The notes beneath the pieces are model-generated. The model made no database searches. It was not told the origin of the DNA and was given only the letters and a program-made list of their open reading frames with translations. A program made the translations under genes and the position numbers. Of a stretch of DNA of 64,000 nt, positions 6,124 to 64,000 are shown in pieces (position 1 is the stretch's first letter; each line of letters opens with the position of its first letter). This stretch comes from Patescibacteria group bacterium (lineage in GTDB: Bacteria > Patescibacteriota > UBA1384 > UBA12157 > JAENIV01): NCBI GenBank assembly GCA_041666185.1, contig JBAYHL010000004.1, forward strand, positions 105 to 64,104, given 5' to 3'.

Positions 6124-9100
6124 TTAATTATTTAATATTTCTCTTGTCTTTGGCCCAACTCGTCCAGCCCCACCTTGCGAAGTATCAATATTGTGATAAT
6201 TCTGATACTCAATCACCGCTTTTTGAGTTATGAAACCAAAATATCCTGTAACATAACGAGAGTCAAGAAACCCTTCACTTACTAGTCTTTCCTGAAGTTT
6301 AGTAACATAATAGCCAGAACTTTCAATGTCTAAATCATAAGGAAAATATACTTTATTAGAATCATCACAAGTTCCCTCAATAGCACAATTTGGGATTATT
6401 CCGTTTTCAATATCTTCATTTAAGGCTGCTCTTGTTCTTGGACCAAAGAAACCAGCTCCCCAATCCCACCAACTGGCAACTATTGCTTTTGACTTCTGAT
6501 ATAGGAATACTGCTTGTTTAGTAATACTGCCATAGAAACCAGTAGAATCTACCCAAAATGGAAAATAACCAAGATATCTTAAAACATTTTGCAAAATTCG
6601 AACATTTGCTTGGTTGTCCCCAGAAAAATAAGGCGCTTGATCGTTATTAAAACGAAATGAAGATTGTTGACCACTTTCTTGAGAAGAAGGACTAGTACTA
6701 GGAATTGGGGTAGGCGTAGGTTTTGAAGACTTACTACCATGACCTTGAGACAATGTTGTTTCTGAGCTAGATGGAGAAACTGCTGTTTCAATATTGTTGC
6801 CATTCCTAGCTTTAACTCTGTAAGCATAAGTTGTTGAGTGGACTAACCCAGTATTAGTTATACCAGTTGCTTCACCCCAAGTAGCGTAATCTTGCCAAAC
6901 GGCGGTATCACCATTACTACCATCAGCTTGGACATATTTACCTAAAGCTTCATTGGAAATAGCAAATTGAGTTGCTGCTGAATTGCCATTAACATTAATA
7001 ATTACCTTAAGCGAAGTGCTTGAAGATCGATTTACTGTTGACGCTAAAGGCACGTTAGCCAAAGTATAAGTTGAAGCGGCTGTACCAGAATGAGGAGATT
7101 GACCGGAATCATTATAAGAAACAACATAACGACCAGAATACTCCGTATTAACCGAAAGTCCAACCTCGTCACAAGAAGTTAAATCAACTCCTACACAAGT
7201 TGCCTTTAAAGTGTCTGTCGCATCATATACTTTAAAACCTACTTCATTTGGATTTACGTCAGTAAATTTCCAACGAATAGCAGCTACTGAAATTGCTTCT
7301 GGTGTGCCAATCGTTGGTGCATCTGGTGGGAAAAAATTCCAACCAGGATTATTGTTACCCGAATCAGTAACGTTATCTCCCGGGGTAATTCTAAAAGCAT
7401 TGTTTATATTTTGACTATCGGAAACATCAATATAATCGCCAGAAATCATATCGCCAGAAATAACAAAATACCAAGCCGTATCTGGCACTGAGCTACGAAG
7501 AGCCAAAACATTCCCAACAGAACCGTCTAAAGTCCATGTATCATTTATGGTCTGAGTTGCCCCCGCGGCAAAAGTAATAGTTTTAGCCCCATCAACTGAA
7601 GTATCCATAATTAAATTGTTGAAAGTCGTTGAGCCAGAAATTGCCGCAGCGTTGGTCGAATCAAAAGTAATAGTTTGTGTTCCAGGAGTTGTTCCAGCAG
7701 TAAATGAACCACCAGAAATATTCCAATTTTTAGCCATATTTATATTCAACCCATCAGCATTAAATACGCCATCTGAATTAGTAAAATTACCATCGATATT
7801 CAAAGCATTGGTAGAAAGTTGTAATGTGCCAGCGCCAGAGTGAGTTAAATTGTTGAATAACTTACCAATGCCTGTGCCACCCGAATCAAGAGTTTGAGTA
7901 CCAGAGGATTTAGTAAAATCCACTATGCCACTACCCGGAGTAAAAGTACCAGAATTTATCCAATTACCACCAACATTTATCGTACCGGAAGTAGCAAAGA
8001 GTATAGTATTTAAATTAATTGTTATATCACCATTTACTGTTAAAATATTTGAAGAAATATCTAGAGTATTAGGACCAATCGACAAAACATAAAGCGAAAG
8101 ATTGCCTTCCGCTACTGTTGTACCGGATAGACTATAAGTTACGCTCTGTTCTTCTGCTAGAGCAGCGGAGTTGTATAAATTTATATTATGATAAATATCA
8201 TTGGGTAAAATATTTGAACCGTAGGCATAATAAGCAAATGTTGCATTATTAGTCGTCCAGTCAACTGTACCACCATTATGAGTATAACTACCAAAAACTG
8301 AAAAACTTCCTACATTAACCTGACCACTGCCAGCTGTAAAAGTTCCATTTGTTACATTAAAAATTTTTCCAACGATCGAACCACTCCCACCAATCAAAAC
8401 TCCACCATTTATAGTAATAGTAGTCGCTGAAGATAGTATGGAAGCGCTGCCAAGACTAACTGTTCCTGTATTTAATGTGCCAGCGGTAACATTTAAATTC
8501 CTAATAGTAGTTAAATTACTAGTATTTAGAGTCCAACCACCACCAGCACCATTAACAGTTAAAGTATAGAAACCAGAAGCACCGCCATTGATTGTTTTCC
8601 CTGTTGCGCCGCCATCTAAAGTAACAGTTCTTGTTTCTTTATCAAAAGTCGCCGTGTTGCTCCATGACCCCGCAACGGTCATATCGCGACTATTAACATC
8701 AAAAGTACCAGCAGAGTTAGTGAAGTCACCATCAATGTTTATGTTATTAGTCAAAAGCTGCAAAATTCCAGCACCAGAGTGAGTAATGTTATTAAAAATT
8801 TTCCCTACGCCCGTACCACCAGAATCAAGAGTTTGAGTACCAGAGGATTTGGTAAAATTAACAGTAGAAGAACCAGAAACAAAAACACCACCAGCAGCAT
8901 TTGACCAATTACCACCGACTGCAATAGTAGACAATGAATCGCTTGCATCAAGAGTTCCATTAATGGTTACATTTACTGCTGTTAGATTATAATCAATTGT
9001 TGAAGGTCGTAGATCTAAAGTTGCATTAGCATTAACAGTCAAGTTGCCAGACATGGCTTTAGTGCCTGTAAGATTTCCTGTTAATGAGTAAGTTGTTGGA

Positions 9101-11529
9101 GTGGTTGGAGCAACAGTCAGGTTGTTGTAAGCATAAGTAATAATGTTTGTACTAGAACCAGTTCCCGTATAAGTGAAAGTTGAGTTAGTGCCTTTATTGA
9201 AAATAGCCACTGATATAGGACTTCCAGTTCCAGTTAAATTTAAATTATAACCACCACTTCCCATGTTAAAACTATAAACCATAACTCGGGTTGCTGTAAT
9301 ACTTGAGCCCAAAGTAATTGTAGCTAATCCAGAATCTAATGTTCCCAAATCATCAGCATTTGAAGAAGAATCTGTCAGAGTCGTTGTGCCATCAAAGTAA
9401 AATAAGCCAGAACCCCTTATAAATATAGCAGTACCGGTATTATTCCAGTGTCCGGCAAAATTCATGTTCAAATTATTGGAATCGAAAGTGCCAGCCGAGT
9501 TGGTAAAAATGCCATTAACATCAAGATTATTGGTTATAAGCTGAAGCGTTCCAGTTCCAGAATGAGTAAGATTATTAAAAAATTTTCCAGCATCTACACC
9601 ACCAGAGCTTAAGGTTTGAGTGCTAGAAGCTTTATTGAAAATAACTGTTGAAGTGTTAGCGGTGAAAGTACCTGAATTAGCCCAGTTTCCAGTACAGGTA
9701 ATAGTTGAAGCATTTGCTGTCAAAGTTCCAGCAATAGTAACGTTGCCAGTAACCGTAATATTTCTATTAGTCGTTCCATCATTAGTTGTTAGGGTGCCAG
9801 CGGTCACATCTAAATCACCATTAACCGTGGTTGTAGCAGTGGCTGGTAATCTGAATGTGCCACCCGTACCATTAATTTTTAAATTATAATATGTCCAATT
9901 TCTAATGTTTCTTGTACCAGAAGTGGCAGAATACTCAACCGTGCCGTGAGCTGTGTCATTTGTTAAGCTGACAGTTGTTTCGTCACCAGTTTGTTTTAAT
10001 GTGCCATTATTAGTAAAAACACCCGTAACAGTAAGATTGTGACCATTAATGTCTAATGTTTTACTTGCTCCTATAGTTAAAGTACCAGAAGCAGTAATAT
10101 CTGCTCCGGCAGTTAAACTTGTGCCATTCAAATTCATGACAGTGGATGTTGTTATTGTATTAGCACCTTGAGTAATGGCACCTATGTAAGCAGCTTGAAA
10201 ATCAAGCGTTGCAACATCAATAGCAGTATCAATTGTTAACGCGCCATTGTGAGCGCTGCCGGCATTGTCAAAAATGGCTGTATCTCCGGCTACTGGCACT
10301 GTTGCGCCACCCGTACCGCCAGATGTATCTGACCAGTTAGCAGTATCATTCCAATTGCCGCTTGTGTTATTAATCCAGTAGCGAGTAGCTGGGCCAGAAG
10401 AAGTTGCTATGCTATTGTCGAAATAAACATTGTAAGGACTAGCAGCACCGTTAGTCCAAGAAAGAAAAGCTTTGCTACCAGTCGTTTGATAACTTGCAGA
10501 AGGGCTAACATTGGTTCCTGTTCCATAAAGAGATGTGGCGGCGGCATCCCAATTGGCTAAAGCATAAGGAGAAACACCTTTTTTGTAATATATTGTATTC
10601 GTGTTTGCATAAAAAGCGTAAAGATCGCCAGACGCTGTATCTATAGTAATTGAAGGATGGGTAGCACTACCAGATTGAATTGTTACAGCACTCGACCATG
10701 TCCCGGAATATTTTGTGTAATAGATTGAACCGGAAGAAAGATATTCTAAATGAATATTGCCCGATGCATCTGATACTAAAGAATAGTCTGTGGTCGCGGT
10801 GCTGACCACAGTAGTTGCAGAAGCATCCCAACTAGAGCTAGCATTAGTATATTTTTTCCCAGCTAAAGTAGTTCCGCTAACCCAGGCTGCATATATATCT
10901 CCTCCTGTAAGAGGAACAATATTAACGCTAGTAAGGTCTGTGCTAAGAGTGTTAATAGCATCCCAAGCAGTTATGTCATTAACATTCGTTGATCTTCTGG
11001 CAAAAATTCCACTTGCTCCATAACCACCATCATCATAAGGCCAAGCCACCCATATTTTGTTGTTTGTATCCTGAGTAATAACGGGAGCACCAGTAATCGA
11101 ATATGCACCACTTGCTGTCACGGGAGAACCCCATGTAATAGAGGTAGCAGCGGCAGTGCCTTGTCTGACATTAAGAACGATCCCATTTGATGTTGCAAGA
11201 TATACAGTTGTGCCGTTGGCCCAAATTGAAAAATCAGAAGTATTTTCAGCAATTGTGCCTGTTCCATTCCATGTCACTCCATCAGTTGAGTATTTGTAAG
11301 CAATAGCCGAGCCATTATAATAAAACGACCAATAGGTAGAATTCGTGCTGTCATAAAAGCTCTTTCTATATTCGGCTCCAGTGGTGGCACTAGCGCTAGT
11401 TGATGTTCCAATCGTTACTGGCGCTGCGTAAGCAGTTTCATAAGGAGGACCAAAAATACCATAAACTATGGTAAATAATAAAAAAATTAGTAGAAAAAAT
11501 TTATAAATATTGCGTACCGGAATTATCAC
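6124..11529 (-). CDS. Giant (1801 aa) cell-wall-associated surface protein: Asp-box/BNR N-terminal region, long Thr/Ser/Asn/Gly-rich beta-helix-like repeats, FN3-like modules, two C-terminal peptidoglycan-binding domains
   Basis: Signal/TM at the N-terminus. The Asp-box motif is YSTDGVTW. A ~70-aa unit (FTKSSGTQTLDSGGTG.GK.FNN.THSGAG.LQL..N.) occurs three times. The C-terminus has PG_binding_1-like ...LQERLVSEGFLDSRYVTGYFGFITQKAVIEYQ and VLRYLGYFP...GSITKQAVFLYQ. It has a GTG start with an AAGGAGG RBS, ~80 nt downstream of 5S. Confidence 0.85.
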   Translation of the reverse strand: MIIPVRNIYKFFLLIFLLFTIVYGIFGPPYETAYAAPVTIGTSTSASATTGAEYRKSFYDSTNSTYWSFYYNGSAIAYKYSTDGVTWNGTGTIAENTSDFSIWANGTTVYLATSNGIVLNVRQGTAAATSITWGSPVTASGAYSITGAPVITQDTNNKIWVAWPYDDGGYGASGIFARRSTNVNDITAWDAINTLSTDLTSVNIVPLTGGDIYAAWVSGTTLAGKKYTNASSSWDASATTVVSTATTDYSLVSDASGNIHLEYLSSGSIYYTKYSGTWSSAVTIQSGSATHPSITIDTASGDLYAFYANTNTIYYKKGVSPYALANWDAAATSLYGTGTNVSPSASYQTTGSKAFLSWTNGAASPYNVYFDNSIATSSGPATRYWINNTSGNWNDTANWSDTSGGTGGATVPVAGDTAIFDNAGSAHNGALTIDTAIDVATLDFQAAYIGAITQGANTITTSTVMNLNGTSLTAGADITASGTLTIGASKTLDINGHNLTVTGVFTNNGTLKQTGDETTVSLTNDTAHGTVEYSATSGTRNIRNWTYYNLKINGTGGTFRLPATATTTVNGDLDVTAGTLTTNDGTTNRNITVTGNVTIAGTLTANASTITCTGNWANSGTFTANTSTVIFNKASSTQTLSSGGVDAGKFFNNLTHSGTGTLQLITNNLDVNGIFTNSAGTFDSNNLNMNFAGHWNNTGTAIFIRGSGLFYFDGTTTLTDSSSNADDLGTLDSGLATITLGSSITATRVMVYSFNMGSGGYNLNLTGTGSPISVAIFNKGTNSTFTYTGTGSSTNIITYAYNNLTVAPTTPTTYSLTGNLTGTKAMSGNLTVNANATLDLRPSTIDYNLTAVNVTINGTLDASDSLSTIAVGGNWSNAAGGVFVSGSSTVNFTKSSGTQTLDSGGTGVGKIFNNITHSGAGILQLLTNNINIDGDFTNSAGTFDVNSRDMTVAGSWSNTATFDKETRTVTLDGGATGKTINGGASGFYTLTVNGAGGGWTLNTSNLTTIRNLNVTAGTLNTGTVSLGSASILSSATTITINGGVLIGGSGSIVGKIFNVTNGTFTAGSGQVNVGSFSVFGSYTHNGGTVDWTTNNATFAYYAYGSNILPNDIYHNINLYNSAALAEEQSVTYSLSGTTVAEGNLSLYVLSIGPNTLDISSNILTVNGDITINLNTILFATSGTINVGGNWINSGTFTPGSGIVDFTKSSGTQTLDSGGTGIGKLFNNLTHSGAGTLQLSTNALNIDGNFTNSDGVFNADGLNINMAKNWNISGGSFTAGTTPGTQTITFDSTNAAAISGSTTFNNLIMDTSVDGAKTITFAAGATQTINDTWTLDGSVGNVLALRSSVPDTAWYFVISGDMISGDYIDVSDSQNINNAFRITPGDNVTDSGNNNPGWNFFPPDAPTIGTPEAISVAAIRWKFTDVNPNEVGFKVYDATDTLKATCVGVDLTSCDEVGLSVNTEYSGRYVVSYNDSGQSPHSGTAASTYTLANVPLASTVNRSSSTSLKVIINVNGNSAATQFAISNEALGKYVQADGSNGDTAVWQDYATWGEATGITNTGLVHSTTYAYRVKARNGNNIETAVSPSSSETTLSQGHGSKSSKPTPTPIPSTSPSSQESGQQSSFRFNNDQAPYFSGDNQANVRILQNVLRYLGYFPFWVDSTGFYGSITKQAVFLYQKSKAIVASWWDWGAGFFGPRTRAALNEDIENGIIPNCAIEGTCDDSNKVYFPYDLDIESSGYYVTKLQERLVSEGFLDSRYVTGYFGFITQKAVIEYQNYHNIDTSQGGAGRVGPKTREILNN
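7700..9640 (-). repeat. Three intragenic coding repeats (~210 nt each, at ~7700-7925, ~8650-8860 and ~9430-9640) inside the giant surface-protein gene
   Basis: A 29-nt stretch gaatcaagagtttgagtaccagaggattt is identical at 7883-7911 and 8822-8850. The third copy, at 9604-9633, has diverged. The antisense ORFs at 7616-7843 and 8588-8782 both end in ...SC.(I/V)PAPE, mirroring the repeat. Confidence 0.8.
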
Positions 11530-11621: not shown

Positions 11622-11743
11622 AGTGCTGGCGTCGATCTACTTTCCCGGGACCTTGCGGTCCGAGTATCATCGACGCTATGGTGCTTAACTTCTCTGTTCG
11701 GAATGGAAAGAGGTGTACCCACCACGCTAAAACACCAGCACTT
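11622..11743 (-). rRNA. rrf: 5S ribosomal RNA
   Basis: The reverse complement reads AGUGCUGGUG...CCGAACAGAGAAGUUAAGC...CGCCAGCACU, with helix I ends pairing and the conserved CCGAAC...GAAGUUAAGC loop. Confidence 0.85.
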
Positions 11744-11865
11744 AAATTGCGAAGGATTATATTAACTTACAACTTACAATCACCAACTACAACAAGTTGT
11801 AGATTGTTTGTTGTGAATTATTAGTTATTTTTCATCAGTACCTTAGTAGTTGTTTCGTCAAAAAA

Positions 11866-14780
<2,915 letters not shown>

Positions 14781-14893
14781 CAACTACCAAGGCACTGATG
14801 ATTCTGTTGTTAAAGTAGCCAGATTACTGGATAATCGGATGAATAGAGCAATCTCTAATCCTCTGATTATCTAACAACCTTTATTTATGATGT

Positions 14894-14918
14894 TAAAAAA
14901 ACCGCCTTGACGGCGGAC
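14894..14918 (-). terminator. Rho-independent terminator downstream of the pilin-LTD gene
   Basis: The minus strand reads CCGCCGUCAAGGCGG followed by UUUUUUU. Confidence 0.6.
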
Positions 14919-15052
14919 AAAACACAAAGTTAGCTTAAAAAAGCTTACGTTGTTAGCCGCGCGCCCCCTCTCCTAGATTGTCTTTTCCATACATCAGTTT
15001 TAACTCCTTTTTGATTTTAACAAGACCTTTGATTATTGTCAATAGTTTTCTA

Positions 15053-16213
15053 TTAAAAAGAACCTGGATTTGGACTTGCGTCATCGACAAAGCCACTGGT
15101 TGCACTAGTTCTAGCCAATGAATGGCCTTCAGCAACATCGGCTAAATGAGGAAGGGGTGTTGCAGTTGTTCCCCAGCTTAATTGATCAACTACCTGATCA
15201 TATGGATTCTTCAATTCAAGAGAGTCGCCATTGTTGTTTAAAAAAAAAGCGCTTGCTACGAAAATTTTTGCGTCAGGATATCCTGGCCATTTAGCAATAA
15301 ACCCCACTCCTGTAGTAGGTATTATCATAGCGAACTCATGAGACCCAATAGTAGTTGTGCGACCAGCAGCTTTTTCGAGTCCGGCTATATTGCCTACAGA
15401 TCCATAGAGGGAAGAAATTTTCCATCCATCCATATCAACAGATCCAGACGTTGGGTTGTAAAGTTCAATCCATTCAAAACTTTGTTCCATACCATCATTC
15501 CCCCCTGGTCCATAACTTCCTGACGGACCTTTGTCTGGGGCAACATCGTAATAAACCTCAGAAATTATCACATTCCCACCATTACTAATTGCTGGGGGAG
15601 GAGGATCTGACGGCTTCCATGTAGAGGCATCTAAACTATAAACTTCATACATTTTTGACGAAACACCAGTAGACGGCATTACTCCGCCATCATTAATCAT
15701 TAGTTCGTTTCCTTCTTCCAACCGTGCCATCAATTTGTAACCTGAACCATTAGAACCGTAATAATAGGCATAGGTTTCTGTTGTGCCCGCTTCATCACTA
15801 TAAGCTTTACCTTGAAGAGGATCTTGTGGTAAAGGTGATAAATAAACTTTTAAAATATTATGAAGCGAATTAGCGTTGTCAGTAAACCAAGAACGCACAG
15901 TCGCTGACGAATCACAACTTGCCTCGCATGTATTACTACTTAAAACCCAACTTGAACCAGTGCTTGGATAAGTACCTTTTTCATTTTTATATGTCTCTAG
16001 CGCTCCACGAATTGCATCCAAATTAGTAACTCTTTTACTGTCACGACTTTTTCTTCTGGCAGGAGCAAGACTAGTAATTACAAGACCAGCAACAACCACA
16101 ACAATCATTACCACTACTAAGAGTTCTATTAAGGTAAACCCCGACACCAATCGATGATTGGTTGTGGGGGTAAAACTACGTTTTTTTTGCTTAAGATATT
16201 TTTCTTGTCGCAT
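15053..16213 (-). CDS. Type IV pilin / pseudopilin with a C-terminal lamin-tail domain (LTD)
   Basis: Class III (prepilin) signal: basic leader then G|FTLIELLVVV. The C-terminus has LTD motifs VIISEVYYD, EWIELYNPT..VDMDGWKI and NNGDSLELKNPYDQVVDQLSWG. Confidence 0.85.
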   Translation of the reverse strand: MRQEKYLKQKKRSFTPTTNHRLVSGFTLIELLVVVMIVVVVAGLVITSLAPARRKSRDSKRVTNLDAIRGALETYKNEKGTYPSTGSSWVLSSNTCEASCDSSATVRSWFTDNANSLHNILKVYLSPLPQDPLQGKAYSDEAGTTETYAYYYGSNGSGYKLMARLEEGNELMINDGGVMPSTGVSSKMYEVYSLDASTWKPSDPPPPAISNGGNVIISEVYYDVAPDKGPSGSYGPGGNDGMEQSFEWIELYNPTSGSVDMDGWKISSLYGSVGNIAGLEKAAGRTTTIGSHEFAMIIPTTGVGFIAKWPGYPDAKIFVASAFFLNNNGDSLELKNPYDQVVDQLSWGTTATPLPHLADVAEGHSLARTSATSGFVDDASPNPGSF

Positions 16214-16327
16214 TTTTCCCCATTTATATTTATATCTTAAACTTTTTATTTTTTTTAATCAATAAAAAAATGGAGAAAAATTACTTTTAGCAAAAATTTC
16301 TCCATTTTTTCTCTGTTACTTAACAGA

Positions 16328-17020
16328 CTATTTTAATTCTTTACGAATTTTTTCCAAAATGTCTTGGGCCACGTCTTTACCGCCCAAACCAAAAGCAAGT
16401 CCACCAGCAATTGCCAAGAAAGCTACCAAACCAATAAACATGGTTCTAATAAGCGCTTCGGCAATACCTAGTTGGACCAAAACAGCCAAGAATGTGAAAA
16501 CAATAATTGCATAACGGACAATTGCTGCAATTGCGTCTGACATGGCAAAATCAGCTGCCGCCATGGCACCTTTAATCACATTTGACAAGAAATGAGCTAA
16601 AACTAACCCAATAAGCAAAATGGCACCAGCAGCAACAGCTGTTGGGACATAAGCAAGAATCTTGTCTAAGAATAATGCGACATCAGGCAATTTTAAGGTA
16701 TTAGCAGCCGCAATAAAGACAACTAGATAAATTATCCATTTAGCTACTGACGACAATAAAGCTGTTGTGTCTTTATCAATATTGCCTTTTTTCAAAACAT
16801 CTTCGACTTTAGCTTTTTCAAACAAGGTTTGTAAACCAATAATTCGAAAAAGTCGGTCGATAACAATCGCAACAATTATACCAATAAGCCAACCAATAAC
16901 TAAAATGATAATTGCGCCAATAAGATTAGGCAAGAAATTTACAAAACGATCCCAAATTGCTGTCCAACTGTCGGTTACCGCAGTTGTCCAATCTTGTAAA
17001 ACCATTTTTTCCTCTTTCAA
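16328..17020 (-). CDS. Polytopic membrane protein with MscS-associated 'TM-helix' type repeats (function unknown)
   Basis: 230 aa with repeated hydrophobic segments and short K/E-rich termini. Family assignment is weak. Confidence 0.5.
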   Translation of the reverse strand: MKEEKMVLQDWTTAVTDSWTAIWDRFVNFLPNLIGAIIILVIGWLIGIIVAIVIDRLFRIIGLQTLFEKAKVEDVLKKGNIDKDTTALLSSVAKWIIYLVVFIAAANTLKLPDVALFLDKILAYVPTAVAAGAILLIGLVLAHFLSNVIKGAMAAADFAMSDAIAAIVRYAIIVFTFLAVLVQLGIAEALIRTMFIGLVAFLAIAGGLAFGLGGKDVAQDILEKIRKELK

Positions 17021-17216
17021 AAATTAGAACTAAACTCTCGGATAGCTCGACCTCACTTTCTACCTTAATTAGATATTAAATTAAGGTAGCTCTATCCACA
17101 CTCAAGATATTTCAGATTTGAATATAATTCAAGAAGTTTGTCAAGAGCAAGGAGTATTTTAAAAGGGATGTATTAATACATCCCTTGTTTGTTTGTATAC
17201 CTTATGTTGTAGCAAT

Positions 17217-17795
17217 TTACTTGACAAAAACCCTATTCACCGCATCCCATATTCGGACAATACCAGGATGAGCCTGGACACCTAGTAACTTTTGTCTGTT
17301 AAACAATACTATTCCTTTTTCCGGATAATATTCGCTCGCTCGCAAATGATTTTGAGCGAAAGCCAATTCTTGCGGCGTCATTTCGAAAGCAAAAGTGTCT
17401 GCGAAAACATGCATTGAATATCCACCGACACCATCGGACCAAAGATATTGCTGAATATCACTAGAAGCGAAAAGTCTTCTTAGCCTTTCGACACCAATCA
17501 AAAGGCCCGTGTCATCTTCAAAGTGACGACGAGCGGTTTCCAGCAAAGACTCTCCAGGATTCATACTGCCACCATAAACCCACCATTCATTTTTAGCGGG
17601 CTTTATGCATCTTTTGGCTAAGCAGAGATTGATCTGACGCGTTGGCCGATCATACATCCAAGGCACAACATCACAGCAATGGTAAACAAGTCTCGATACT
17701 GCTCGAGGATATTCTTCGTCAGTTAGTCTAACTTTTGACGGTTGATAACCGTTTTCTACAAAAACACTGCCACCAATAGCTCTGTATTTTTCCAC
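17217..17795 (-). CDS. NUDIX-family hydrolase
   Basis: It has a Nudix-box-like GGSMNPGESLLETARRHFEDDTGL. GC is visibly higher (~45%) than the flanking DNA. Confidence 0.7.
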   Translation of the reverse strand: MEKYRAIGGSVFVENGYQPSKVRLTDEEYPRAVSRLVYHCCDVVPWMYDRPTRQINLCLAKRCIKPAKNEWWVYGGSMNPGESLLETARRHFEDDTGLLIGVERLRRLFASSDIQQYLWSDGVGGYSMHVFADTFAFEMTPQELAFAQNHLRASEYYPEKGIVLFNRQKLLGVQAHPGIVRIWDAVNRVFVK

Positions 17796-17884
17796 AACAA
17801 GGTAACCTCCTCTTTTAACTATTAGAACATGTTACTATACCATAAAAACCCCTTTTCGTCAAGGATTTTAGAGAAGTTGCAACC

Positions 17885-17912
17885 TTGACATTTTGGCAAT
17901 AACAAGTATATT
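17885..17912 (+). promoter_or_regulatory. Sigma70-like promoter for the C-type lectin gene
   Basis: TTGACA (17885-17890), a 16-nt spacer, then TATATT (17907-17912). An AGGAG RBS lies 8 nt before the ATG at 17945. Confidence 0.45.
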
Positions 17913-17944
17913 AGAATAAGTTCTTTAACAGATAGGAGACGAAC

Positions 17945-18694
17945 ATGAAAAAAGTTTTGTTTACCGCTCTTGCTTGCACAGTGTTTTCTCTGCCAAGCAA
18001 TATTTATGCTAGTAGTCATTCTTGGGTATTGTGCCCTCTTAATGGTCACTACTATTCCAAAACAGTTTCACCAGTAATGACATGGAATGAAGCAGAAACT
18101 GAAGCAATAAGTGTTGGTGGTCATTTAGCTACTATTCGCAATACAGCAGAAGAAGAATGGATACTCAAAACTTTTCCGCCAGAAAGACTCTGGATAGGGT
18201 TGACAGATTCAGTCTCGGAAGGTAATTGGTTATGGACTAGTGGTGAACCGGTTACTTACACCAATTGGTCAGCTGGCCATCCTAATAATTCTTCCGAAAA
18301 CCAAGATTTTGCTACAATTTGGGGATCACCACCAACATATCCCGCATACTGGGAATCGCGTTCTGGATACGAAAGAACATCTGGAATAATAGAGATAACA
18401 TCTCTACCGCTGCAAATTGTAAATCTTTTTGGTACAATTTATCAAAAAGATTTACAAGAGCAAGTCATTACAGCACCAGATGTCTTTATAGACATCCTGG
18501 ATGTGAATAGAGAACATTTTGTAGTGTCTGGCAAAACTGATGGTAACGGCAAATTCACTATTCTTGCTGATAACTGGCAAGATAGTACATATATCATTCG
18601 GATAAGAAAAACTGGTTACAAAACAAAAGAAGTAGGGGCTACTCTAAAGAATAGTTCCTCAACACCCTTTTCGACAACATTGGAAACAGAATAA
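17945..18694 (+). CDS. Secreted C-type lectin domain (CTLD) protein with a C-terminal carboxypeptidase-regulatory-like beta-sandwich
   Basis: Signal peptide. CTLD hallmarks are WNEAE..A...GGHLATI, WIGLTD, EGNWLWTSGEPVTYTNW, GHPNN and QDFATI. One of very few plus-strand genes here, and GC is slightly elevated. Confidence 0.85.
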   Translation: MKKVLFTALACTVFSLPSNIYASSHSWVLCPLNGHYYSKTVSPVMTWNEAETEAISVGGHLATIRNTAEEEWILKTFPPERLWIGLTDSVSEGNWLWTSGEPVTYTNWSAGHPNNSSENQDFATIWGSPPTYPAYWESRSGYERTSGIIEITSLPLQIVNLFGTIYQKDLQEQVITAPDVFIDILDVNREHFVVSGKTDGNGKFTILADNWQDSTYIIRIRKTGYKTKEVGATLKNSSSTPFSTTLETE

Positions 18695-18713
18695 ATAGAC
18701 AGATCCTTACTTT

Positions 18714-18751
18714 GGTCAATCAGAGATAACTTCAAGATTGACCTTTTTTAT
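18714..18751 (+). terminator. Bidirectional rho-independent terminator between the lectin gene (+) and the receiver gene (-)
   Basis: GGTCAATC...GATTGACC hairpin followed by TTTTTTA. Confidence 0.6.
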
Positions 18752-18766
18752 TCTTAAAATATTTTT

Positions 18767-19186
18767 TTACTCTAAATACTGTCTAATTTTGTCTACCACT
18801 TGATTTGGCGTAAGATTTGCTTTCACTAAATAGTCGTCGGCACCAAGTTTTCTTGCCATATTAATATCTGTAGCATCACCAAGATTAGAAAAAACGATAA
18901 CTGGTTTTTTGGAAGCTGGCCATCCAGAAGAACGAAGCTGTTTTAAAACATCAAGGCCATTAATTTTCGGAAGTATCAGATCAAGTAAAATCAGATCGTA
19001 ATCAATGGATCCTAATTTTTGAATTGCCTCCAAACCATCGAAAGCACTATCCATTTCAAAACCTTCCATAGCTAGCTTGTCCTGATAGGCTCTGACTAAC
19101 ATTCTATCATCTTCGATGAAAATAATTTTTTTTCTTGTTTGCTGAAATTGACCAGACTGATCTCCATTGTTTTGATTGTTTGTCAT
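18767..19186 (-). CDS. Stand-alone response-regulator receiver (CheY-like) protein
   Basis: 139 aa with the acidic pocket DD and phospho-acceptor D (LILLDLILP), T/S (VIVFSN) and K (LVK) signatures, and no output domain. Confidence 0.9.
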   Translation of the reverse strand: MTNNQNNGDQSGQFQQTRKKIIFIEDDRMLVRAYQDKLAMEGFEMDSAFDGLEAIQKLGSIDYDLILLDLILPKINGLDVLKQLRSSGWPASKKPVIVFSNLGDATDINMARKLGADDYLVKANLTPNQVVDKIRQYLE

Positions 19187-19206
19187 ATTCCCTCCATTTT
19201 TATTTT

Positions 19207-22200
19207 TTACATATCTTTTTCTTTATTAATTTTTAAAATTGGCAATGAAAAGTAAAATGTACTACCTTTACCAAGCTCTGCCTCGACCCAAATTTTACCT
19301 CCACAACCTTCTATAATTTTTCGAGCAATATATAAACCCAAACCAAGTCCCGTTCCTTTACCAAGAGGTATTTTCTTACCATCACTAACCTGGGCATATT
19401 TTTGGAATAGTTCTTTTTGTCGATCTTTAGCTATTCCTATACCCGTGTCCTTTATTGCCACAATAACTGAGTTCTCTTTAGCTAAAACTTCTAAGCTAAT
19501 TGAACCTTTGTCAGTATATTTAATAGCATTATCAAGTAAATTAACAATGGCCTCAGGAATTTTTTCACAATCTGCCATAACTTTAGGTATTTTTGTTGGT
19601 ATTTTATAATTAAATTTTAAACCTTTTTTTTCTATCAATGGTTTTGTTTGCTTAACTATATAACCTAAGATTGGCACTAAATCAATCAATTTAGGAACAA
19701 TAGTAATTTTCCCTTTTTCTATTCGAGACATAGTTAGAAAATCATTAATTATGTTTATTAAATTCGTATTGGCCCTACTAACATCTTCTAAAGGCACTTT
19801 TAACTTAGGAGGAATTTCACCATAGTCACCATCTAGTATCATTTCTGTATTGGCTCTTATAACAGACACGGGAGTTCGTAAATCGTGGGTTGCCATATTT
19901 AAAAAGTCATCTTTAGCCTGTTCCATTCTATTTCGCTCAGTAACGTCACGAAAGCTACCCAGAAGATACATTTTTCTATTAACAATCAACCGCGATATAT
20001 TTATATCAGCATAAAAAATACTACCGTCTTTTCTTAACACCGGAAGGTTTGAAACAAGTTTAAGTTTTCCTTTTACCTGTTCTCTAAATATTTTTTTAAC
20101 AAATGGTGCATCTTTTTTAGGATGAATATCGTCAACCCCTAAATCCAACAATTCTTTTTTTGTATATCTTAGCATATTACATATTGCTGTATTACACGTA
20201 CTAAATTTACTAGTTTCCGGATCAGCAACTAGTAAACCATCTTTAGAATCTTCAAATATAGTTTCGAATTTTATTTCTGATTCTTTTAATTTTTGTTCAA
20301 TTTTTCCATGTTCAACACGAACACGTTGTGAGGTAACACCAAAAGCAAGATCGTCCACTAATTCCTTCAATAGCTTAATTTCATCCAGAGCAAATGTATT
20401 TGATTTAATCGAATAAATACCAATTACACCAAATACTTTATCATCGCCAACAAGTGGTAAAGCAATAATTGACTTATAACCTCGTTTTAAAGCATCTTCC
20501 TTCCATGGGGACATAGTTGGATCTGTAGCAATATCGTGTACAATACTAGGATTGCCTGTACGAATAGCTATCCCTCCTGGCCCGCGACCACGCTCAGTAT
20601 CTGCCCATGTTAACTTGGCTTTTTTAATGTAGCCTGATTCGAGTCCAGCATGAGCTATAGGAAGTATGGTTTTTGCTTCATCATGTTTGACATAACCAAC
20701 CCACGCTAAGCGGTAACCACCAGTTTCAACAATAATACGACACGCCTCACTCAATAAGTCTATTTCGTCTGTAACATGAATTAGCATCTGATTAATTTCA
20801 CCCACCATCCGTAACGCACGGTTTAGTTTTATAAGGTTTACTTCCGCAAGTTTGGCCTCAGTAATATCCCAAGTAAGATCAGCGAAAAAGGAGACTAATT
20901 TAACATCCTGCTCGTCATAATTGCTCGATTTATTTCCAACACCTAGCACAGCCATAATTTTATCACCACGGATCACTGGTACTACTAATTCGCGAACTAC
21001 TTTTGCATGACCTTTTGGCATACCTTTTTTATTCAAAAGAGACTCATAATCATTGTGAATAACCGGCTTGCGCTGATAAACACAATCTACCCAAACACCA
21101 GCTTTTTCTATTGCATAATGTGATCCTTTGCCTTCAGCTTTGCAAAATTCTTTTTTTGTTCTAGTTGACCAATTTTGCAATGTTAGCGTTTTTTGATCGG
21201 AATTTACAAAATGGAAAAAACCAATAAGACTACCTGTGAGTTTTTCTATTTCGTTTAGTGCCTCTTCCAACAGCTCATCCATAGAGTGACTATTGGCAAA
21301 CACTAAAAGACGGGCACGAGCTTTAAGAATATTTTCTGTCTGTTTGCGCTCGGTAATATCTCTAATAATCGCCATGATCGCCGGTTTATCTTTATAAATA
21401 ATCCTGGAAGAATTCACTTCAACCGGTAGCTTATTTCCAGTTTTTGATAAAATTTCTATTTCATATCTATTTGGCGCGTCTTGACCCTTTAATCTTTTTT
21501 CGTACCTTTCCGCGACAATTTTTTTATACTCGGGAGACAAAAAATCTAGAAATGATTTTCCAATACTTTCCTCTTTTGTAAAACCTGTCATTTGGCAAAT
21601 TACTGAGTTTACGTACTCAAGCACACCTGCACCCTGTATAACTAAAATGCCATCGTTTCCTTTTTCTACCAAAGTTGAGTATTTTAGTTCGGAAGCTTTT
21701 AACTCCTCTTCTGTCTGTTTGCGCTTGGTAATATCACGAATATTGCATTGAATTATTAATTCCCCATCTGTCCTATAAGCATTGGCAATAAATTCAACTT
21801 CAATTTTTTTTCCATTTTTAGTTTCTAATAGTAAATTATTGAAATGAACATGTTTTTTGGCTTGCAAGGCAAGAAAATGCTTTTTCGACATAATAATGTC
21901 TTTAAAAACACCAATTTCCCAAAGATGTTTTTTTTGAAAATCAGCTTTAGAGTAGTTAAGTAAATTAATTAAAAACGGATTAACGTCTTTAATTATTCCT
22001 GTCTTAAAATCGACCAAAAGTATACCGTCTTGAGCCGTTTCAAATAACCGACGATAACGCAACTCTGATGTTTCTAGCTTGTCTTGTTCCTTTTTTTTGC
22101 GGTAAGTAATATCTTCAATAGCTAAAAGTATTATTTTCGGCTTTTTTGGCGGTCGAGGTATGCGTCGAGCATTCAATAACATCGCTTTTGGCCCAATGGT

Positions 22201-22542
22201 CTCAAAATTATGATCGACTTCGAAACTGTCAAAGAAATTATTTTTAGGAAGAATATCTTCCAACAATTTTTTTAATTTGGGAATATTCCATTGACCATTG
22301 CCTAAATCGTAAATAAACTGATTCGTGGTTTCCTTAGGGTTAACTTTAAAAGTCTGATAGAAGGCTTTATTAGCTAAGATTACTTTTAAATCAGTATCCA
22401 GTACCACCAAAGGTTCTCGTATCGTTGTAATAATTTCTTCAGCATACTCACGAGCTTCCTTTTCCTCTTTAAACAGTTCGGCAAAACGACGTTTTTCCAA
22501 AAAAACGTCGTTTAATTTTTCATTTAACTTCTTTTTGGACAC
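19207..22542 (-). CDS. Multi-domain PAS/GAF sensor histidine kinase (1111 aa)
   Basis: Several PAS (e.g. ...RDITERK...) and GAF modules. HisKA H-box is ATHDLRTPVSVI. HATPase G-boxes are DTGIGI and GTGLGLGLYIARKIIEGCGGKIWV. Confidence 0.9.
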   Translation of the reverse strand: MSKKKLNEKLNDVFLEKRRFAELFKEEKEAREYAEEIITTIREPLVVLDTDLKVILANKAFYQTFKVNPKETTNQFIYDLGNGQWNIPKLKKLLEDILPKNNFFDSFEVDHNFETIGPKAMLLNARRIPRPPKKPKIILLAIEDITYRKKKEQDKLETSELRYRRLFETAQDGILLVDFKTGIIKDVNPFLINLLNYSKADFQKKHLWEIGVFKDIIMSKKHFLALQAKKHVHFNNLLLETKNGKKIEVEFIANAYRTDGELIIQCNIRDITKRKQTEEELKASELKYSTLVEKGNDGILVIQGAGVLEYVNSVICQMTGFTKEESIGKSFLDFLSPEYKKIVAERYEKRLKGQDAPNRYEIEILSKTGNKLPVEVNSSRIIYKDKPAIMAIIRDITERKQTENILKARARLLVFANSHSMDELLEEALNEIEKLTGSLIGFFHFVNSDQKTLTLQNWSTRTKKEFCKAEGKGSHYAIEKAGVWVDCVYQRKPVIHNDYESLLNKKGMPKGHAKVVRELVVPVIRGDKIMAVLGVGNKSSNYDEQDVKLVSFFADLTWDITEAKLAEVNLIKLNRALRMVGEINQMLIHVTDEIDLLSEACRIIVETGGYRLAWVGYVKHDEAKTILPIAHAGLESGYIKKAKLTWADTERGRGPGGIAIRTGNPSIVHDIATDPTMSPWKEDALKRGYKSIIALPLVGDDKVFGVIGIYSIKSNTFALDEIKLLKELVDDLAFGVTSQRVRVEHGKIEQKLKESEIKFETIFEDSKDGLLVADPETSKFSTCNTAICNMLRYTKKELLDLGVDDIHPKKDAPFVKKIFREQVKGKLKLVSNLPVLRKDGSIFYADINISRLIVNRKMYLLGSFRDVTERNRMEQAKDDFLNMATHDLRTPVSVIRANTEMILDGDYGEIPPKLKVPLEDVSRANTNLINIINDFLTMSRIEKGKITIVPKLIDLVPILGYIVKQTKPLIEKKGLKFNYKIPTKIPKVMADCEKIPEAIVNLLDNAIKYTDKGSISLEVLAKENSVIVAIKDTGIGIAKDRQKELFQKYAQVSDGKKIPLGKGTGLGLGLYIARKIIEGCGGKIWVEAELGKGSTFYFSLPILKINKEKDM

Positions 22543-22639
22543 ATTACCCCCTCACCTATTTTATTAATTTTTAGTTATATTAGCTTAAAAAACTAATGCT
22601 TGTTTGTTTTTGTTTTTTACAAATTACATTTTTATTATA

Positions 22640-22667: not shown

Positions 22668-22687
22668 AAATACATTATGGTGGACCT

Positions 22688-23435: not shown

Positions 23436-23469
23436 ATGATGATAAGTTTTAAGAAAAGAAATACAAGTT

Positions 23470-25159: not shown

Positions 25160-26622
<1,463 letters not shown>

Positions 26623-63018: not shown

Positions 63019-63744
63019 TTACCAATAATAGGCTCTGCCGCTAGAAGTTAGAGAGACAACATTTTGCCAAAAATGATAATGAGCATCAGTGCATCGCCAG
63101 TCTAATATGTCACGAAGGGAAGCTGAAGCTTCGCACTTGGTGCCACTACCTGCACCCGTACCACCTGTATTAATCGTCTCCATTATGCCATAGCCTCTTA
63201 TTTTATAATCGGTTCCGTCACTTTTGTACACAATACACTGATCACCTTTCAATGAAAACTTCGGATCATTGGGCAAAGATTGCATAAACTCTTTTGTCAA
63301 ACCGGGTATCCAGCTAGAATAACCATCTGCGCTACTATCTTGCGAATCGTAAAAACCCCAGTCCGAACATGCCCCACAATAACCATCTTGGCAAAAATGT
63401 AAATTAGTTCCACTTGGCACCGCTGAATTATAGTGAGGACTCGGATTGGCTGGCCGACAATATACCGGCGCATTACCAATCCCCCAAACACTACCACCAC
63501 AATCAATAAATCCAGTAACAGCTGTTTTAGAAACTGTCATTGGATATGTTCCGTACTTTTCGTTGTACTGTTCCAAAGCACCTTGAATAGTTTTCATATT
63601 AGCCACCCTTTTGGCGTCGCGAGCAGATGCTCGAGCACCGCTGACATTGACAATCACCAAGGAAGCCAAAACAGCAATGATAAAAACTACTACTAAAAGT
63701 TCTATTAAAGTAAAGCCTTTTAATCGTGATAAATTTTTTTTCAT
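63019..63744 (-). CDS. Type IV pilin-like protein (Cys-rich C-terminal domain)
   Basis: MKKNLSRLKG|FTLIELLVVVFIIAVLASLV class III signal, the likely start (the ORF is open from 63792). The C-terminus ends ...GRAYYW. Confidence 0.75.
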   Translation of the reverse strand: MKKNLSRLKGFTLIELLVVVFIIAVLASLVIVNVSGARASARDAKRVANMKTIQGALEQYNEKYGTYPMTVSKTAVTGFIDCGGSVWGIGNAPVYCRPANPSPHYNSAVPSGTNLHFCQDGYCGACSDWGFYDSQDSSADGYSSWIPGLTKEFMQSLPNDPKFSLKGDQCIVYKSDGTDYKIRGYGIMETINTGGTGAGSGTKCEASASLRDILDWRCTDAHYHFWQNVVSLTSSGRAYYW

Positions 63745-63783
63745 TCGTATCTCCTCTTTAATAAATTTATTTTTTATTTGATA

Positions 63784-64000
63784 AATTACCAACTAACAGT
63801 ATTAACGGTAATCGAAGCCTCTTCATAACCTGGTCTATCCATCTCTTGCATTGAAGTAGGATTACAATCGTCTCCAGGATCAGCGGTAGTATCTGCATCA
63901 GTTCCATCACAAACCGTTTCCATTGTGTGATAAGCAAGTAGACCATAATTATTGCCATCACTTCTGTATATATAGCACCCATAAGTGCTAACTTCTTTCG
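63784..64000 (-). CDS. C-terminal fragment of a second, paralogous pilin-like protein (gene continues beyond the window end)
   Basis: The minus-strand frame ends ...METVCDGTDADTTADPGDDCNPTSMQEMDRPGYEEASITVNTVSW*. The preceding pilin's C-terminus is similar (METINTGGTG..., ending W). Confidence 0.4.

What the first reader, a model, noticed from the sequence alone, without database searches (positions are those of the whole stretch)
15053..16213. Type IV pilin with a C-terminal lamin-tail domain
The N-terminus is a textbook class III (prepilin peptidase) signal, G|FTLIELLVVV. The C-terminal ~150 aa carries the LTD hallmarks VIISEVYYD, EWIELYNPT-x6-DMDGW and DSLELKNP...LSWG. An LTD presented on a pilin or pseudopilin scaffold would place an Ig-like binding module on a fibre. 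It is followed by its own terminator and sits directly upstream of the 23S gene.
Basis: partly seen in the sequence, partly recalled or inferred. Interest (0 to 1): 0.6.

Follow-up and report, generated by a model that had tools for sequence, protein, structure and literature searches.

The report
Pilus subunit carrying a lamin-tail domain
This gene from an ultrasmall (Patescibacteria/CPR) bacterium encodes a type IV pilus subunit with an extra lamin-tail, Ig-like domain at its end. It is a rare and variable example of the known "modular pilin" design, probably used for attachment, and is not a new kind of system.

Summary
ORF 15053..16213 (-) encodes a 386-aa protein. It has a class III signal (…VSG|FTLIE, Glu at +5), a pilin module (aa 26-196), a Pro-rich linker (197-212) and a C-terminal LTD (213-386). 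Pfam LTD scores 50.3 bits (cut-off 34.3) and N_methyl 22.5 (cut-off 21.2). In the AlphaFold model, the top 16 PDB matches are all lamin Ig-folds.

This is a modular type IV pilin. That architecture (IPR012902-IPR001322) was already listed, uncharacterised, in Raynaud et al. 2021.

New here:
- The family is tiny: six singleton clusters among 1.84 billion representatives.
- At least four members occupy the same chromosomal slot in one CPR lineage, between a conserved PF05552 membrane-protein gene and the 23S rRNA.
- Two related contigs lack the gene.
- The LTD half diverges faster than the pilin half.
- The LTD is acidic (pI 4.3), and its nearest relatives are secreted, SipW-type LTD proteins, not nucleases.

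Most likely it is a minor, pilus-displayed adhesin. The ligand is unknown and DNA capture is disfavoured.

The "own terminator" belongs to a conserved promoter / mini-ORF / terminator leader of the 23S rRNA. That leader is the more unusual thing seen here.

The parts
15053..16213 (-). Complete CDS of the LTD-pilin (386 aa plus stop). It is identical to NCBI MFA6492892.1, 'MAG: lamin tail domain-containing protein [Patescibacteria group bacterium]'.
16139..16213 (-). Class III leader peptide, aa 1-25 (MRQEKYLKQKKRSFTPTTNHRLVSG), basic and ending in Gly-1. A GGGGA Shine-Dalgarno-like site sits at 16217-16221.
   Evidence: The orthologues have 5-7 aa leaders; a 22-aa leader occurs in the related pilin P0074.
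16073..16138 (-). Hydrophobic alpha1-N of the mature pilin (FTLIELLVVVMIVVVVAGLVIT), with Phe+1 and Glu+5.
   Evidence: Pfam N_methyl aa 24-45; TIGR02532; aligns to residue 1 onward of solved pilins.
15626..16138 (-). Pilin module (aa 26-196): alpha1 helix 28-79 plus a small beta-sheet globular part. It is homologous to abundant stand-alone 150-220 aa pilins.
   Evidence: 35-45% identity to P0074, P0078, P0079, P0081 and others
15578..15625 (-). Pro-rich linker (STWKPSDPPPPAISNG, aa 197-212), predicted to be disordered.
   Evidence: pLDDT <50 for residues 196-211
15056..15577 (-). Lamin-tail domain module (aa 213-386), a beta-sandwich. It is acidic: pI 4.3, 8 K+R against 20 D+E.
16234..16262 (-). 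Candidate promoter of the pilin gene (TTGATT-17 nt-TAAGAT). It is weak (8/12) and below the scan's threshold.
   Evidence: read from the sequence; not flagged
16264..16310 (-). Hairpin plus T-run that ends the upstream PF05552 gene. This makes the pilin gene its own transcription unit.
   Evidence: fold z = -3.5. The equivalent hairpin is present in the orthologous spacers.
16328..17020 (-). Conserved upstream neighbour: a 230-aa membrane protein with MscS-type 'conserved TM helix' repeats (PF05552).
   Evidence: 76-81% identical (93% in one 68-aa fragment) and adjacent in L081, L082, L083, L089 and L090
14895..15042 (-). Conserved leader of the 23S rRNA. It is not part of the pilin gene. It comprises a promoter TTGACA-17-TAAAAT (15014-15042), an SD AAAGGAG (15004-15010), a 13-codon mini-ORF (14953-14994), a small hairpin (14932-14946) and a GC hairpin plus T7 (14895-14916). 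A boxA-like CTTTAACAA follows at 14807-14815.

Best explanation
The gene encodes a modular, low-abundance (minor) type IV pilin of a Patescibacteria/CPR bacterium.

Shown:
- The protein has a class III signal peptide with Gly-1, Phe+1 and Glu+5.
- It has a pilin module of a very common CPR pilin family, a flexible Pro-rich linker and a C-terminal lamin-tail Ig-like beta-sandwich.

Inferred mechanism:
1. The prepilin inserts into the membrane through its hydrophobic alpha1-N.
2. The genome's prepilin peptidase removes the 25-aa leader.
3. The pilus machinery extracts the subunit into a filament built mainly from a smaller pilin. Its alpha1 is 55% identical over 69 residues to that of the pilin at 63019-63792, so co-assembly is plausible.
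4. A 175-aa module cannot be packed at every subunit position. The protein would therefore sit at the tip or sparsely along the fibre, with the LTD held out on its linker as a binding module.

The ligand is unknown. I favour a surface component of a host or partner cell, or of a substrate (adhesion or host recognition), for four reasons:
- The gene is accessory.
- Its LTD half evolves faster than its pilin half and its neighbours.
- The LTD is strongly acidic.
- Its closest LTD relatives are secreted or surface-displayed proteins without any nuclease domain.
For: - Domain calls are above curated thresholds.
- The alignment of F26 to residue 1 of solved mature pilins fixes the cleavage site and Glu5.
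- The AlphaFold model (mean pLDDT 74) has alpha1 at 28-79, a disordered linker at 196-211 and a beta-sandwich. Its 16 best PDB hits are lamin Ig-folds, with GspG/EpsG and PAK pilin as weak hits for the other half.
- The pilin half alone matches many stand-alone 150-220 aa pilins. Other pilins of this family carry different C-terminal modules: LamG, fn3 and PF09603.
- The concept and the architecture are published. Raynaud et al. 2021 (PMC8179133) describe modular pilins as a pilin module, a short linker and a functional module, likely tip-exposed. Their Dataset S1 lists IPR012902-IPR001322 six times.
- Positional orthologues exist. The same PF05552 gene lies upstream in L081, L082 and L083, and the 23S lies downstream in L082 and L085.
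- The slot is empty in L089 and L090.
- Identity is 76-81% for the neighbour, 39-49% for the pilin module and only 26-29% for the LTD module.
- The LTD pI is 4.3-4.8 in all six members.
- The nearest LTDs are LTD-only proteins or fusions to SipW-type signal peptidase/signal peptide.
Against: - No prepilin peptidase, assembly ATPase or platform gene is in the 64-kb window. Processing and assembly are therefore assumed.
- Nothing is known experimentally about what any bacterial LTD binds. Searches found only speculation about membrane association or DNA.
- The inter-domain geometry is uncertain (pTM 0.51).
- Fast divergence of the LTD could reflect relaxed constraint or module replacement rather than selection for new specificities.
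- The 25-aa leader is atypically long for this family.
Confidence: 0.6

Rival explanations
1. It is a surface-display protein that borrows the class III signal. The prepilin-type N-terminus serves only for export, peptidase processing and membrane or envelope anchoring. The LTD is shown at the cell surface, and the protein is never polymerised into a pilus. From memory, this would resemble the archaeal sugar-binding proteins that carry class III signal peptides.
For: The same LTD subfamily is exported and anchored by quite different devices in CPR bacteria: plain signal peptides, SipW-dependent signal peptides, and fusion to a SipW-like peptidase with TM segments. This suggests the anchor is interchangeable and that the LTD acts at the surface. 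The gene is an orphan, far from any pilus genes.
Against: The whole pilin module is conserved, not just the signal. It is 39-49% identical to the orthologues and 35-45% to stand-alone pilins over about 175 residues. This argues that the filament-forming fold is still under selection. In L084 the orthologue lies 48 nt from a stand-alone pilin gene of the same family.
Confidence: 0.2
2. It is a DNA-receptor pilin. The LTD captures extracellular DNA for pilus-mediated uptake, either for natural transformation or for nucleotide scavenging by an auxotrophic CPR cell. In that role it would be analogous to ComP, FimT or ComZ.
For: LTDs are recurrently fused to extracellular nucleases and to ComEC/ComA-like metallo-beta-lactamase proteins, and have been proposed to bind DNA. 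Deleting the LTD slows ExeM in vitro. Saccharibacteria are naturally competent (PMC10633639/PMC10187176 abstracts).
Against: The LTD module is strongly acidic in all six family members: pI 4.3-4.8, 8 K+R against 20 D+E in this protein. None of the ten closest LTD proteins scanned has a nuclease or nucleic-acid-binding domain. The ExeM LTD is dispensable for extracellular DNA degradation in vivo. A gene needed for DNA uptake would not be expected to be missing from close relatives.
Confidence: 0.1
3. It is a type II secretion-like pseudopilin (GspG homologue) of a secretion piston rather than of an extended pilus.
For: The best NCBIfam hit is TIGR01710 GspG, and the best PDB sequence hit is the GspG pseudopilus 5wda. 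Foldseek gives weak hits to EpsG/GspG.
Against: The GspG match covers only profile positions 1-63 of 134 and scores 47.2 against a cut-off of 88.85. That is the shared alpha1 helix only. The same helix matches T4P major pilins of Thermus, Myxococcus, Geobacter and Streptococcus. A pseudopilus confined to the envelope would gain nothing from a 175-aa binding module on a linker.
Confidence: 0.05

Closest known systems
Modular type IV pilins: Streptococcus sanguinis PilB (vWA module) and PilC (lectin module) (Raynaud et al. 2021, PMC8179133; PMC9934059)
   Same: An N-terminal class III signal and small pilin module, a short linker and a C-terminal ligand-binding module. These are minor pilins thought to be tip-exposed. 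The strategy is described as widespread, with 264 architectures.
   Different: The module here is an LTD, not vWA or ConA-like. The host is a CPR bacterium. There is no structural or functional evidence for this protein.
InterPro architecture IPR012902 - IPR001322 (prepilin N-terminal motif plus lamin tail domain), 6 proteins in Dataset S1 of Raynaud et al. 2021
   Same: Exactly this domain order. That IPR001322 denotes the lamin tail domain is from my own knowledge.
   Different: The entry is only a count in a supplementary table, with no description. I could not check whether those six belong to the same family or lineage as this protein.
Stand-alone CPR-type pilins of 150-220 aa (e.g. P0074, P0078, P0079, P0081; the 148-aa pilin in L084)
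   Same: The same pilin module along its full length: GFTLIELLVV…SRDxKRxxNLxxIxxALExYK…YLxxLPxDP…YKLxAxLE…DGG…YEVYS, at 35-45% identity.
   Different: They end right after the pilin fold. This protein continues into a linker and an LTD.
CPR LTD proteins with a SipW-dependent signal peptide or fused to a SipW-like signal peptidase I (P0006, P0007, P0008, P0012, P0014; P0027 is named signal peptidase I, Candidatus Chisholmbacteria)
   Same: These are the closest LTD sequences, at 33-37% identity. They include the C-terminal extension …AEGHSLxR…D(F/W)…(T/N)PG. The secreted P0004 shares the unusual loop YYDVAP(D/N)KGP…FEWIELYN.
   Different: Export and anchoring use a TasA/SipW-type route or TM segments instead of a pilin module.
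ExeM/NucH-type extracellular nucleases and archaeal ComA-like proteins carrying an LTD
   Same: They contain a PF00932 domain and are extracellular or membrane-associated.
   Different: In those proteins the LTD accompanies nuclease or metallo-beta-lactamase domains. Here there is no catalytic domain, and the nearest LTD relatives have none either.
Eukaryotic nuclear lamin Ig-fold (e.g. 3jt0, 1ifr, 3gef)
   Same: The same beta-sandwich fold by Foldseek: E 6.5e-5 to 1e-3, TM to target up to 0.66.
   Different: Sequence identity is 11-18%. The cellular context and partners are unrelated.

Membership tests
Type IV pilin / type 4 filament subunit | Class III signal peptide: short basic leader ending in Gly(-1), Phe(+1) and Glu(+5) | tested here: met
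   The sequence is …HRLVSG|FTLIE. N_methyl scores 22.5 against GA 21.2, and TIGR02532 scores 20.3 against 16.3. Profile position 8 (F26) aligns to residue 1 of mature solved pilins. The leader is long at 25 aa.
Type IV pilin / type 4 filament subunit | About 20-residue hydrophobic alpha1-N continuing into a helix of about 50 residues packed on a beta-sheet | tested here: met
   The AlphaFold helix spans 28-79 at pLDDT about 87-95, followed by strands 89-92, 146-152, 159-163 and 189-195. This is a prediction only. Parts of the globular region have low confidence.
Type IV pilin / type 4 filament subunit | Cognate prepilin peptidase and assembly machinery (PilD, PilB, PilC, PilM/N/O) in the genome | not testable with these tools
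   None are found among the annotated genes of the 64-kb window. The contig is only 64,784 nt. Two other pilin genes lie at 63019-64000.
Type IV pilin / type 4 filament subunit | Processing, N-methylation and incorporation into filaments | not testable with these tools
   These need experiments.
Lamin tail domain (Pfam PF00932) | Profile HMM match above the gathering score | tested here: met
   50.3 bits against 34.3, E=3.5e-13, aa 210-348 covering profile positions 3-108 of 109.
Lamin tail domain (Pfam PF00932) | Ig-like beta-sandwich fold resembling the lamin C-terminal globular domain | tested here: met
   The top 16 Foldseek PDB hits are all lamin A/C, B1 and B2 Ig-folds, found with a model of mean pLDDT 74.
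Modular pilin (sensu Raynaud et al. 2021) | N-terminal pilin module joined by a short linker to a domain not specific to pilus biology | tested here: met
   Pilin module 26-196, disordered Pro-rich linker 197-212 and LTD 213-386. The definition is and the architecture is listed.
T2SS major pseudopilin GspG (TIGR01710) | Full-length match above the curated cut-off | tested here: not met
   47.2 bits against 88.85, matching only profile positions 1-63 of 134.
DNA-receptor pilins (ComP / FimT / ComZ type) | Electropositive DNA-binding surface or homology to those modules | tested here: not met
   The LTD module has pI 4.31, with 8 K+R against 20 D+E, and all six orthologues have pI 4.3-4.8. There is no sequence or fold hit to ComP, FimT or ComZ. 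Net charge is only a proxy, and DNA binding itself was not tested.

The most novel reading that the evidence does not exclude
The slot between the PF05552 gene and the 23S rRNA is a presence/absence-polymorphic, fast-evolving host-recognition locus in one Patescibacteria lineage. The LTD on the pilus would be the specificity determinant that decides which partner cell the episymbiont's pili grab. Its LTD cassette would be exchanged with secreted, SipW-type LTD proteins. This would give the first function for a prokaryotic lamin-tail domain.
Probability: 0.15. Interest if true: 0.6.

Novelty: new member of a known kind. Interest (0 to 1): 0.3.

Why it matters
How CPR/Patescibacteria recognise and hold on to their hosts is largely unknown. 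Type IV pili are the best candidates for this. Modular pilins are the simplest way to give a pilus a new binding specificity. A pilin that displays an LTD also offers a handle on the prokaryotic lamin-tail domain, which is widespread on secreted proteins and nucleases but has no demonstrated ligand. On present evidence, though, this is one more catalogued architecture, in six metagenomic singletons and without functional data. Its value is as a candidate for binding studies rather than as a discovery. The conserved mini-ORF/terminator leader in front of the unlinked 23S rRNA, found while checking the "own terminator", may be the more original lead.

Tried and rejected
- **Genome scan.** I scanned GTDB species genomes for relatives. 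It returned 80 loci. A regex screen found no ORF combining a pilin motif with an LTD motif. L010, which matched the pilin half, is a plain 191-aa pilin.
- **Pilus machinery.** I looked for it across the whole window with five Pfam batches and found none.
- **DNA-receptor idea.** Tested by charge and by the domain partners of the nearest LTDs. It is disfavoured.
- **Alternative start codons.** A TTG/GTG start just before G25 would give a short leader, but neither has a Shine-Dalgarno site. The ATG at 16213 has GGGGA 5 nt upstream, so I kept the ATG. This reading is from the sequence.
- **Overlapping ORFs.** The 61-aa ORF 14953..15138 and the plus-strand ORFs inside the gene are spurious. Only the last 13 codons of the first coincide with the conserved mini-ORF.
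- **23S leader.** Rfam finds no known family in the spacer. RNAalifold on 8 leaders gave only a weak consensus of -1.36 kcal/mol. A trimmed alignment for pair counting was mis-registered, so I did not use it.
- **Literature.** I found no work on pilin-LTD fusions or on LTD ligands in bacteria beyond speculation. I found none on leader-peptide control of rRNA.
Full report
**1. What is there**

The window is a chromosomal fragment of a Patescibacteria (CPR) bacterium, about 36% GC, with nearly all genes on the minus strand. ORF 15053..16213 (-) encodes 386 aa. An identical protein is deposited as MFA6492892.1, 'MAG: lamin tail domain-containing protein [Patescibacteria group bacterium]'. JGI calls it a prepilin-type N-terminal cleavage/methylation domain protein. 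It sits on a 64,784-nt contig.

Three details need correcting. The gap between EWIELYNPT and DMDGW is 4 residues, not 6. The LTD-homologous region is about 175 aa, not 150. The leader is 25 aa long.

**2. Domain evidence**

- Pfam gives LTD (PF00932) at E=3.5e-13, 50.3 bits against a gathering score of 34.3, over aa 210-348.
- Pfam gives N_methyl (PF07963) at 22.5 bits against 21.2, over aa 24-45.
- NCBIfam gives the IV_pilin_GFxxxE domain above its cut-off. It also gives sub-threshold, N-terminal-only matches to GspG, PilA, ComGC and others.
- A profile of the six full-length family members was searched against all PDB sequences. It aligns its position 8 (Phe26 here) with residue 1 of mature GspG (5wda), Thermus PilA4 (6xxd), Geobacter PilA-N, Myxococcus PilA (8tj2), S. 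sanguinis PilE1 (8pfb) and Neisseria PilE. The cleavage context G25|F26 and Glu5 (E30) are therefore as in bona fide pilins.
- AlphaFold2 with a 59-sequence alignment (mean pLDDT 74, pTM 0.51) predicts alpha1 at 28-79, a small sheet, a disordered stretch at 196-211 (the Pro-rich STWKPSDPPPPAISNG) and a beta-sandwich.
- With Foldseek against the PDB, the 16 best hits are all lamin A/C, B1 and B2 Ig-folds (E from 6.5e-5). EpsG/GspG and PAK pilin appear as weak hits for the other half.

**3. How common is it, and is it known**

I searched a three-sequence profile exhaustively against 1.84 billion cluster representatives. It gave 123,165 hits. Only six of the top 150 are full-length pilin+LTD: this protein, P0002, P0003, P0060, P0061 and P0066.

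The other top hits were of two kinds:
- multi-LTD proteins that match only the C-terminal half;
- stand-alone 150-220 aa pilins that match only the N-terminal half.

All six full-length members are singleton clusters seen on one or two contigs among about 15 billion proteins. Among the 80 best LTD loci from 185,579 species genomes, none fuses a pilin motif to an LTD.

The design itself is published. Raynaud et al. 2021 (PMC8179133) define modular pilins as a pilin module, a short linker and a functional module, likely tip-exposed. They found more than 1,200 such proteins in 264 architectures. Their Dataset S1 lists 'IPR012902 - IPR001322' six times, plus one variant. That IPR001322 is the lamin tail domain is from my own knowledge. 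No paper in the library discusses a pilin-LTD protein.

Other pilins of the same family carry LamG, fn3 or PF09603 modules. The LTD is thus one of several cargoes grafted on this CPR pilin scaffold.

**4. Genomic context**

The gene is its own transcription unit.
- The upstream gene (16328..17020) encodes a PF05552 MscS-type 'conserved TM helix' membrane protein. It ends in a strong hairpin plus T-run at 16264-16310 (z = -3.5).
- A weak TTGATT-17-TAAGAT promoter candidate and a GGGGA Shine-Dalgarno-like site precede the ATG.
- No pilus machinery lies anywhere in the window.
- Two other pilin genes lie 47 kb away: 63019..63792 and a truncated one at 63800-64000. The first shares 55% identity over the first 69 aligned residues. 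Which one is the major subunit cannot be decided from sequence.

The contigs that carry the other family members show that these are positional orthologues.
- In L081, L082 and L083 the gene upstream on the same strand is the same PF05552 protein, at 76-81% identity. L083 has one small extra ORF in between.
- In L082 and L085 the 23S rRNA begins 284 and 231 nt downstream, against 285 nt in the window.
- L082 also keeps the NUDIX gene (47% identity) and the two small genes and tRNAs found further upstream in the window.
- In L084 the orthologue is followed 48 nt later by a 148-aa stand-alone pilin of the same family. In L085 it is preceded by the C-terminus of another LTD protein.

A metagenome scan with a 23S-leader motif recovered two related contigs, L089 and L090. 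Their PF05552 proteins are 93% (a 68-aa fragment) and 82% identical to the window's. In both, that gene is followed after about 75 nt by the 23S promoter, with no pilin gene. The LTD-pilin is therefore an accessory gene in this lineage.

**5. Evolutionary pattern**

| Compared with the positional orthologues | Identity |
|---|---|
| PF05552 neighbour | 76-81% |
| Pilin module | 39-49% |
| LTD module | 26-29% |

- Each pilin-borne LTD is as close, or closer, to non-pilin LTDs as it is to the other pilin-borne LTDs.
- This protein's LTD is closest (35-37% identity) to small secreted LTD proteins (P0004, P0179, P0012) and to LTDs fused to SipW-like signal peptidases (P0006-P0008).
- With P0004 it shares a distinctive loop: YYDVAPDKGPSGSYGPGGNDGMEQSFEW against YYDVAPNKGPLGNFGPHQNDNLESTFEW.
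- NCBIfam confirms an archaeal/SipW-type signal peptidase I in P0006 and P0008. It also confirms SipW-dependent signal peptides (TIGR04088, above cut-off) in P0008 and P0012.
- All ten of the nearest larger LTD proteins I scanned contain only LTD domains, with no nuclease.

**6. What it most likely does**

Shown: the architecture and the fold. Inferred: the steps that follow.

1. The protein inserts into the membrane through alpha1-N.
2. A prepilin peptidase removes the leader.
3. The subunit is incorporated as a minor subunit into a pilus made of a smaller pilin. A 175-aa appendage on every subunit is sterically implausible.
4. The LTD is presented on its flexible linker as a binding module.

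I favour adhesion or partner recognition for four reasons: the gene is accessory, its binding half diverges fastest, its relatives are surface or secreted LTD proteins, and type 4 pili mediate host binding in cultivated Patescibacteria (PMC12206443 abstract).

DNA capture is the attractive alternative. LTDs accompany extracellular nucleases and ComA-like proteins, and have been suggested to bind DNA. Three observations weigh against it:
- the LTD is strongly acidic in all six members (pI 4.3-4.8);
- the ExeM LTD is dispensable for DNA degradation in vivo;
- the nearest LTDs lack nuclease partners.

A third possibility is that the class III signal serves only for surface display without polymerisation. 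The conservation of the whole pilin fold argues against that, but does not exclude it. The GspG pseudopilin reading fails its membership test.

**7. The 'own terminator'**

The GC hairpin plus T7 at 14895-14916 lies downstream of a near-consensus promoter, TTGACA-17-TAAAAT with an extended TG (15014-15042, 11/12). Between them sit an AAAGGAG Shine-Dalgarno and a 13-codon ORF (14953-14994).

This module is conserved in front of the 23S in ten related contigs, whether or not the pilin gene is present. It comprises an invariant TTGACA, a Shine-Dalgarno, a 12-14 codon ORF, a variable hairpin and a GC hairpin plus T-run. It is followed by a boxA-like CTTTAACAA; the E. coli boxA consensus is from memory.

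- The peptide sequence is poorly conserved.
- In two contigs the conserved nucleotides GGGGGTCGACGGATAA are read in another frame. Conservation is therefore at the RNA level, plus the mere presence of an ORF.
- That stretch, including the stop codon, is complementary to the 5' flank and 5' arm of the terminator (UUAUCCGCCG).
- In three contigs the minimum-energy fold forms this long helix instead of the terminator.
- Duplex energies beat shuffles clearly in five of nine sequences, but not in the window itself.

It looks like a translation-sensitive attenuator in the leader of an unlinked 23S-5S operon. This is a hypothesis only. Rfam has nothing there, and a literature search found no precedent. 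For the present finding, it means the hairpin is primarily part of the rRNA leader. It may incidentally stop read-through from the pilin gene.

**8. Verdict**

The protein is a new member of a known kind, the modular type IV pilins, in an architecture already counted in a 2021 survey but never studied. It is rare, accessory and fast-evolving in one CPR lineage. Its ligand is unknown.

The interest is modest (0.3). It would rise if the LTD proved to be the host-specificity or DNA-binding determinant of CPR pili.

Noticed in passing
window 14895-15042 (-), with boxA-like 14807-14815; also L081, L082, L085, L086, L088-L092: A conserved leader lies upstream of the unlinked 23S rRNA. It has a near-consensus promoter, a Shine-Dalgarno, a 12-14 codon mini-ORF (MYGKDNLGEGARG in the window), a variable hairpin, then a GC hairpin plus T-run. 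The mini-ORF's 3' end and stop codon are complementary to the terminator's 5' flank and arm. This is a possible ribosome-sensing attenuator of rRNA transcription. It is present in ten related contigs, with or without the pilin gene. No Rfam family or literature precedent was found.
   Followed up: partly
window 11624-26619 (-): The rRNA operon is split. The order is 16S (25165-26619), a PsbP-like ORF (24350-24982), tRNA-Ile, two small ORFs (23658-24128 and about 23473-23742), tRNA-Ala, about 8.5 kb of protein genes, then 23S (11863-14768) and 5S. The small ORFs between the tRNAs, the NUDIX gene and the PF05552 gene are conserved in the same order in L082 and L090.
   Followed up: partly
window 17945-22542: This block holds a PAS/GAF histidine kinase (1111 aa), a response regulator and a secreted C-type-lectin plus CarboxypepD_reg-like protein on the opposite strand. 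It lies between tRNA-Ala and the NUDIX gene. The syntenic contig L082 lacks it, so it appears to be an insertion into the rRNA spacer region.
   Followed up: no
window 16328-17020 (-): A 230-aa membrane protein is made of MscS-type 'conserved TM helix' repeats (PF05552). It is 76-93% identical across related contigs and always sits just upstream of the LTD-pilin slot. Whether this reflects a functional link or mere synteny is unknown.
   Followed up: partly
proteins P0006, P0007, P0008, P0014, P0027, P0054 (not in the window): These CPR proteins fuse an archaeal/SipW-type signal peptidase I, TM segments, a SipW-dependent-type signal peptide (TIGR04088) and an LTD in one polypeptide. That puts a peptidase and what looks like its own substrate in the same chain.
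   Followed up: partly
window 63019-64000 (-): Two tandem pilin genes lie here. One is 239 aa (MKKNLSRLKG|FTLIELL…, Cys-rich). The other is truncated by the window end, with a C-terminus …YIYRSDGNNYGLLAYHTMETV…. Their N-terminal helix is 55% identical to that of the LTD-pilin. They are candidates for the filament's main subunit, but this is unresolved.
   Followed up: partly
orthologues P0002, P0003, P0061, P0066 (L083, L084, L081, L082): Four of the six family members have Ser instead of Gly at position -1 of the prepilin cleavage site (…S|FTLIE). So do other pilins of this family (P0140, P0178). This suggests a peptidase in this lineage that accepts Ser at -1.
   Followed up: no
L084 1268-1714 and L085 1-243: In L084 the LTD-pilin is followed 48 nt later by a 148-aa stand-alone pilin of the same family. 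In L085 it is preceded by the C-terminus of a second LTD protein. This points to local duplication or shuffling of pilin and LTD cassettes at this locus.
   Followed up: no
window 6124-11529 (-): A giant 1801-aa protein has only C-terminal PG_binding_1 repeats recognised. It lies next to an M15 peptidase with a CarboxypepD_reg domain (5057-6067). It may be a large cell-surface or host-interaction protein.
   Followed up: no
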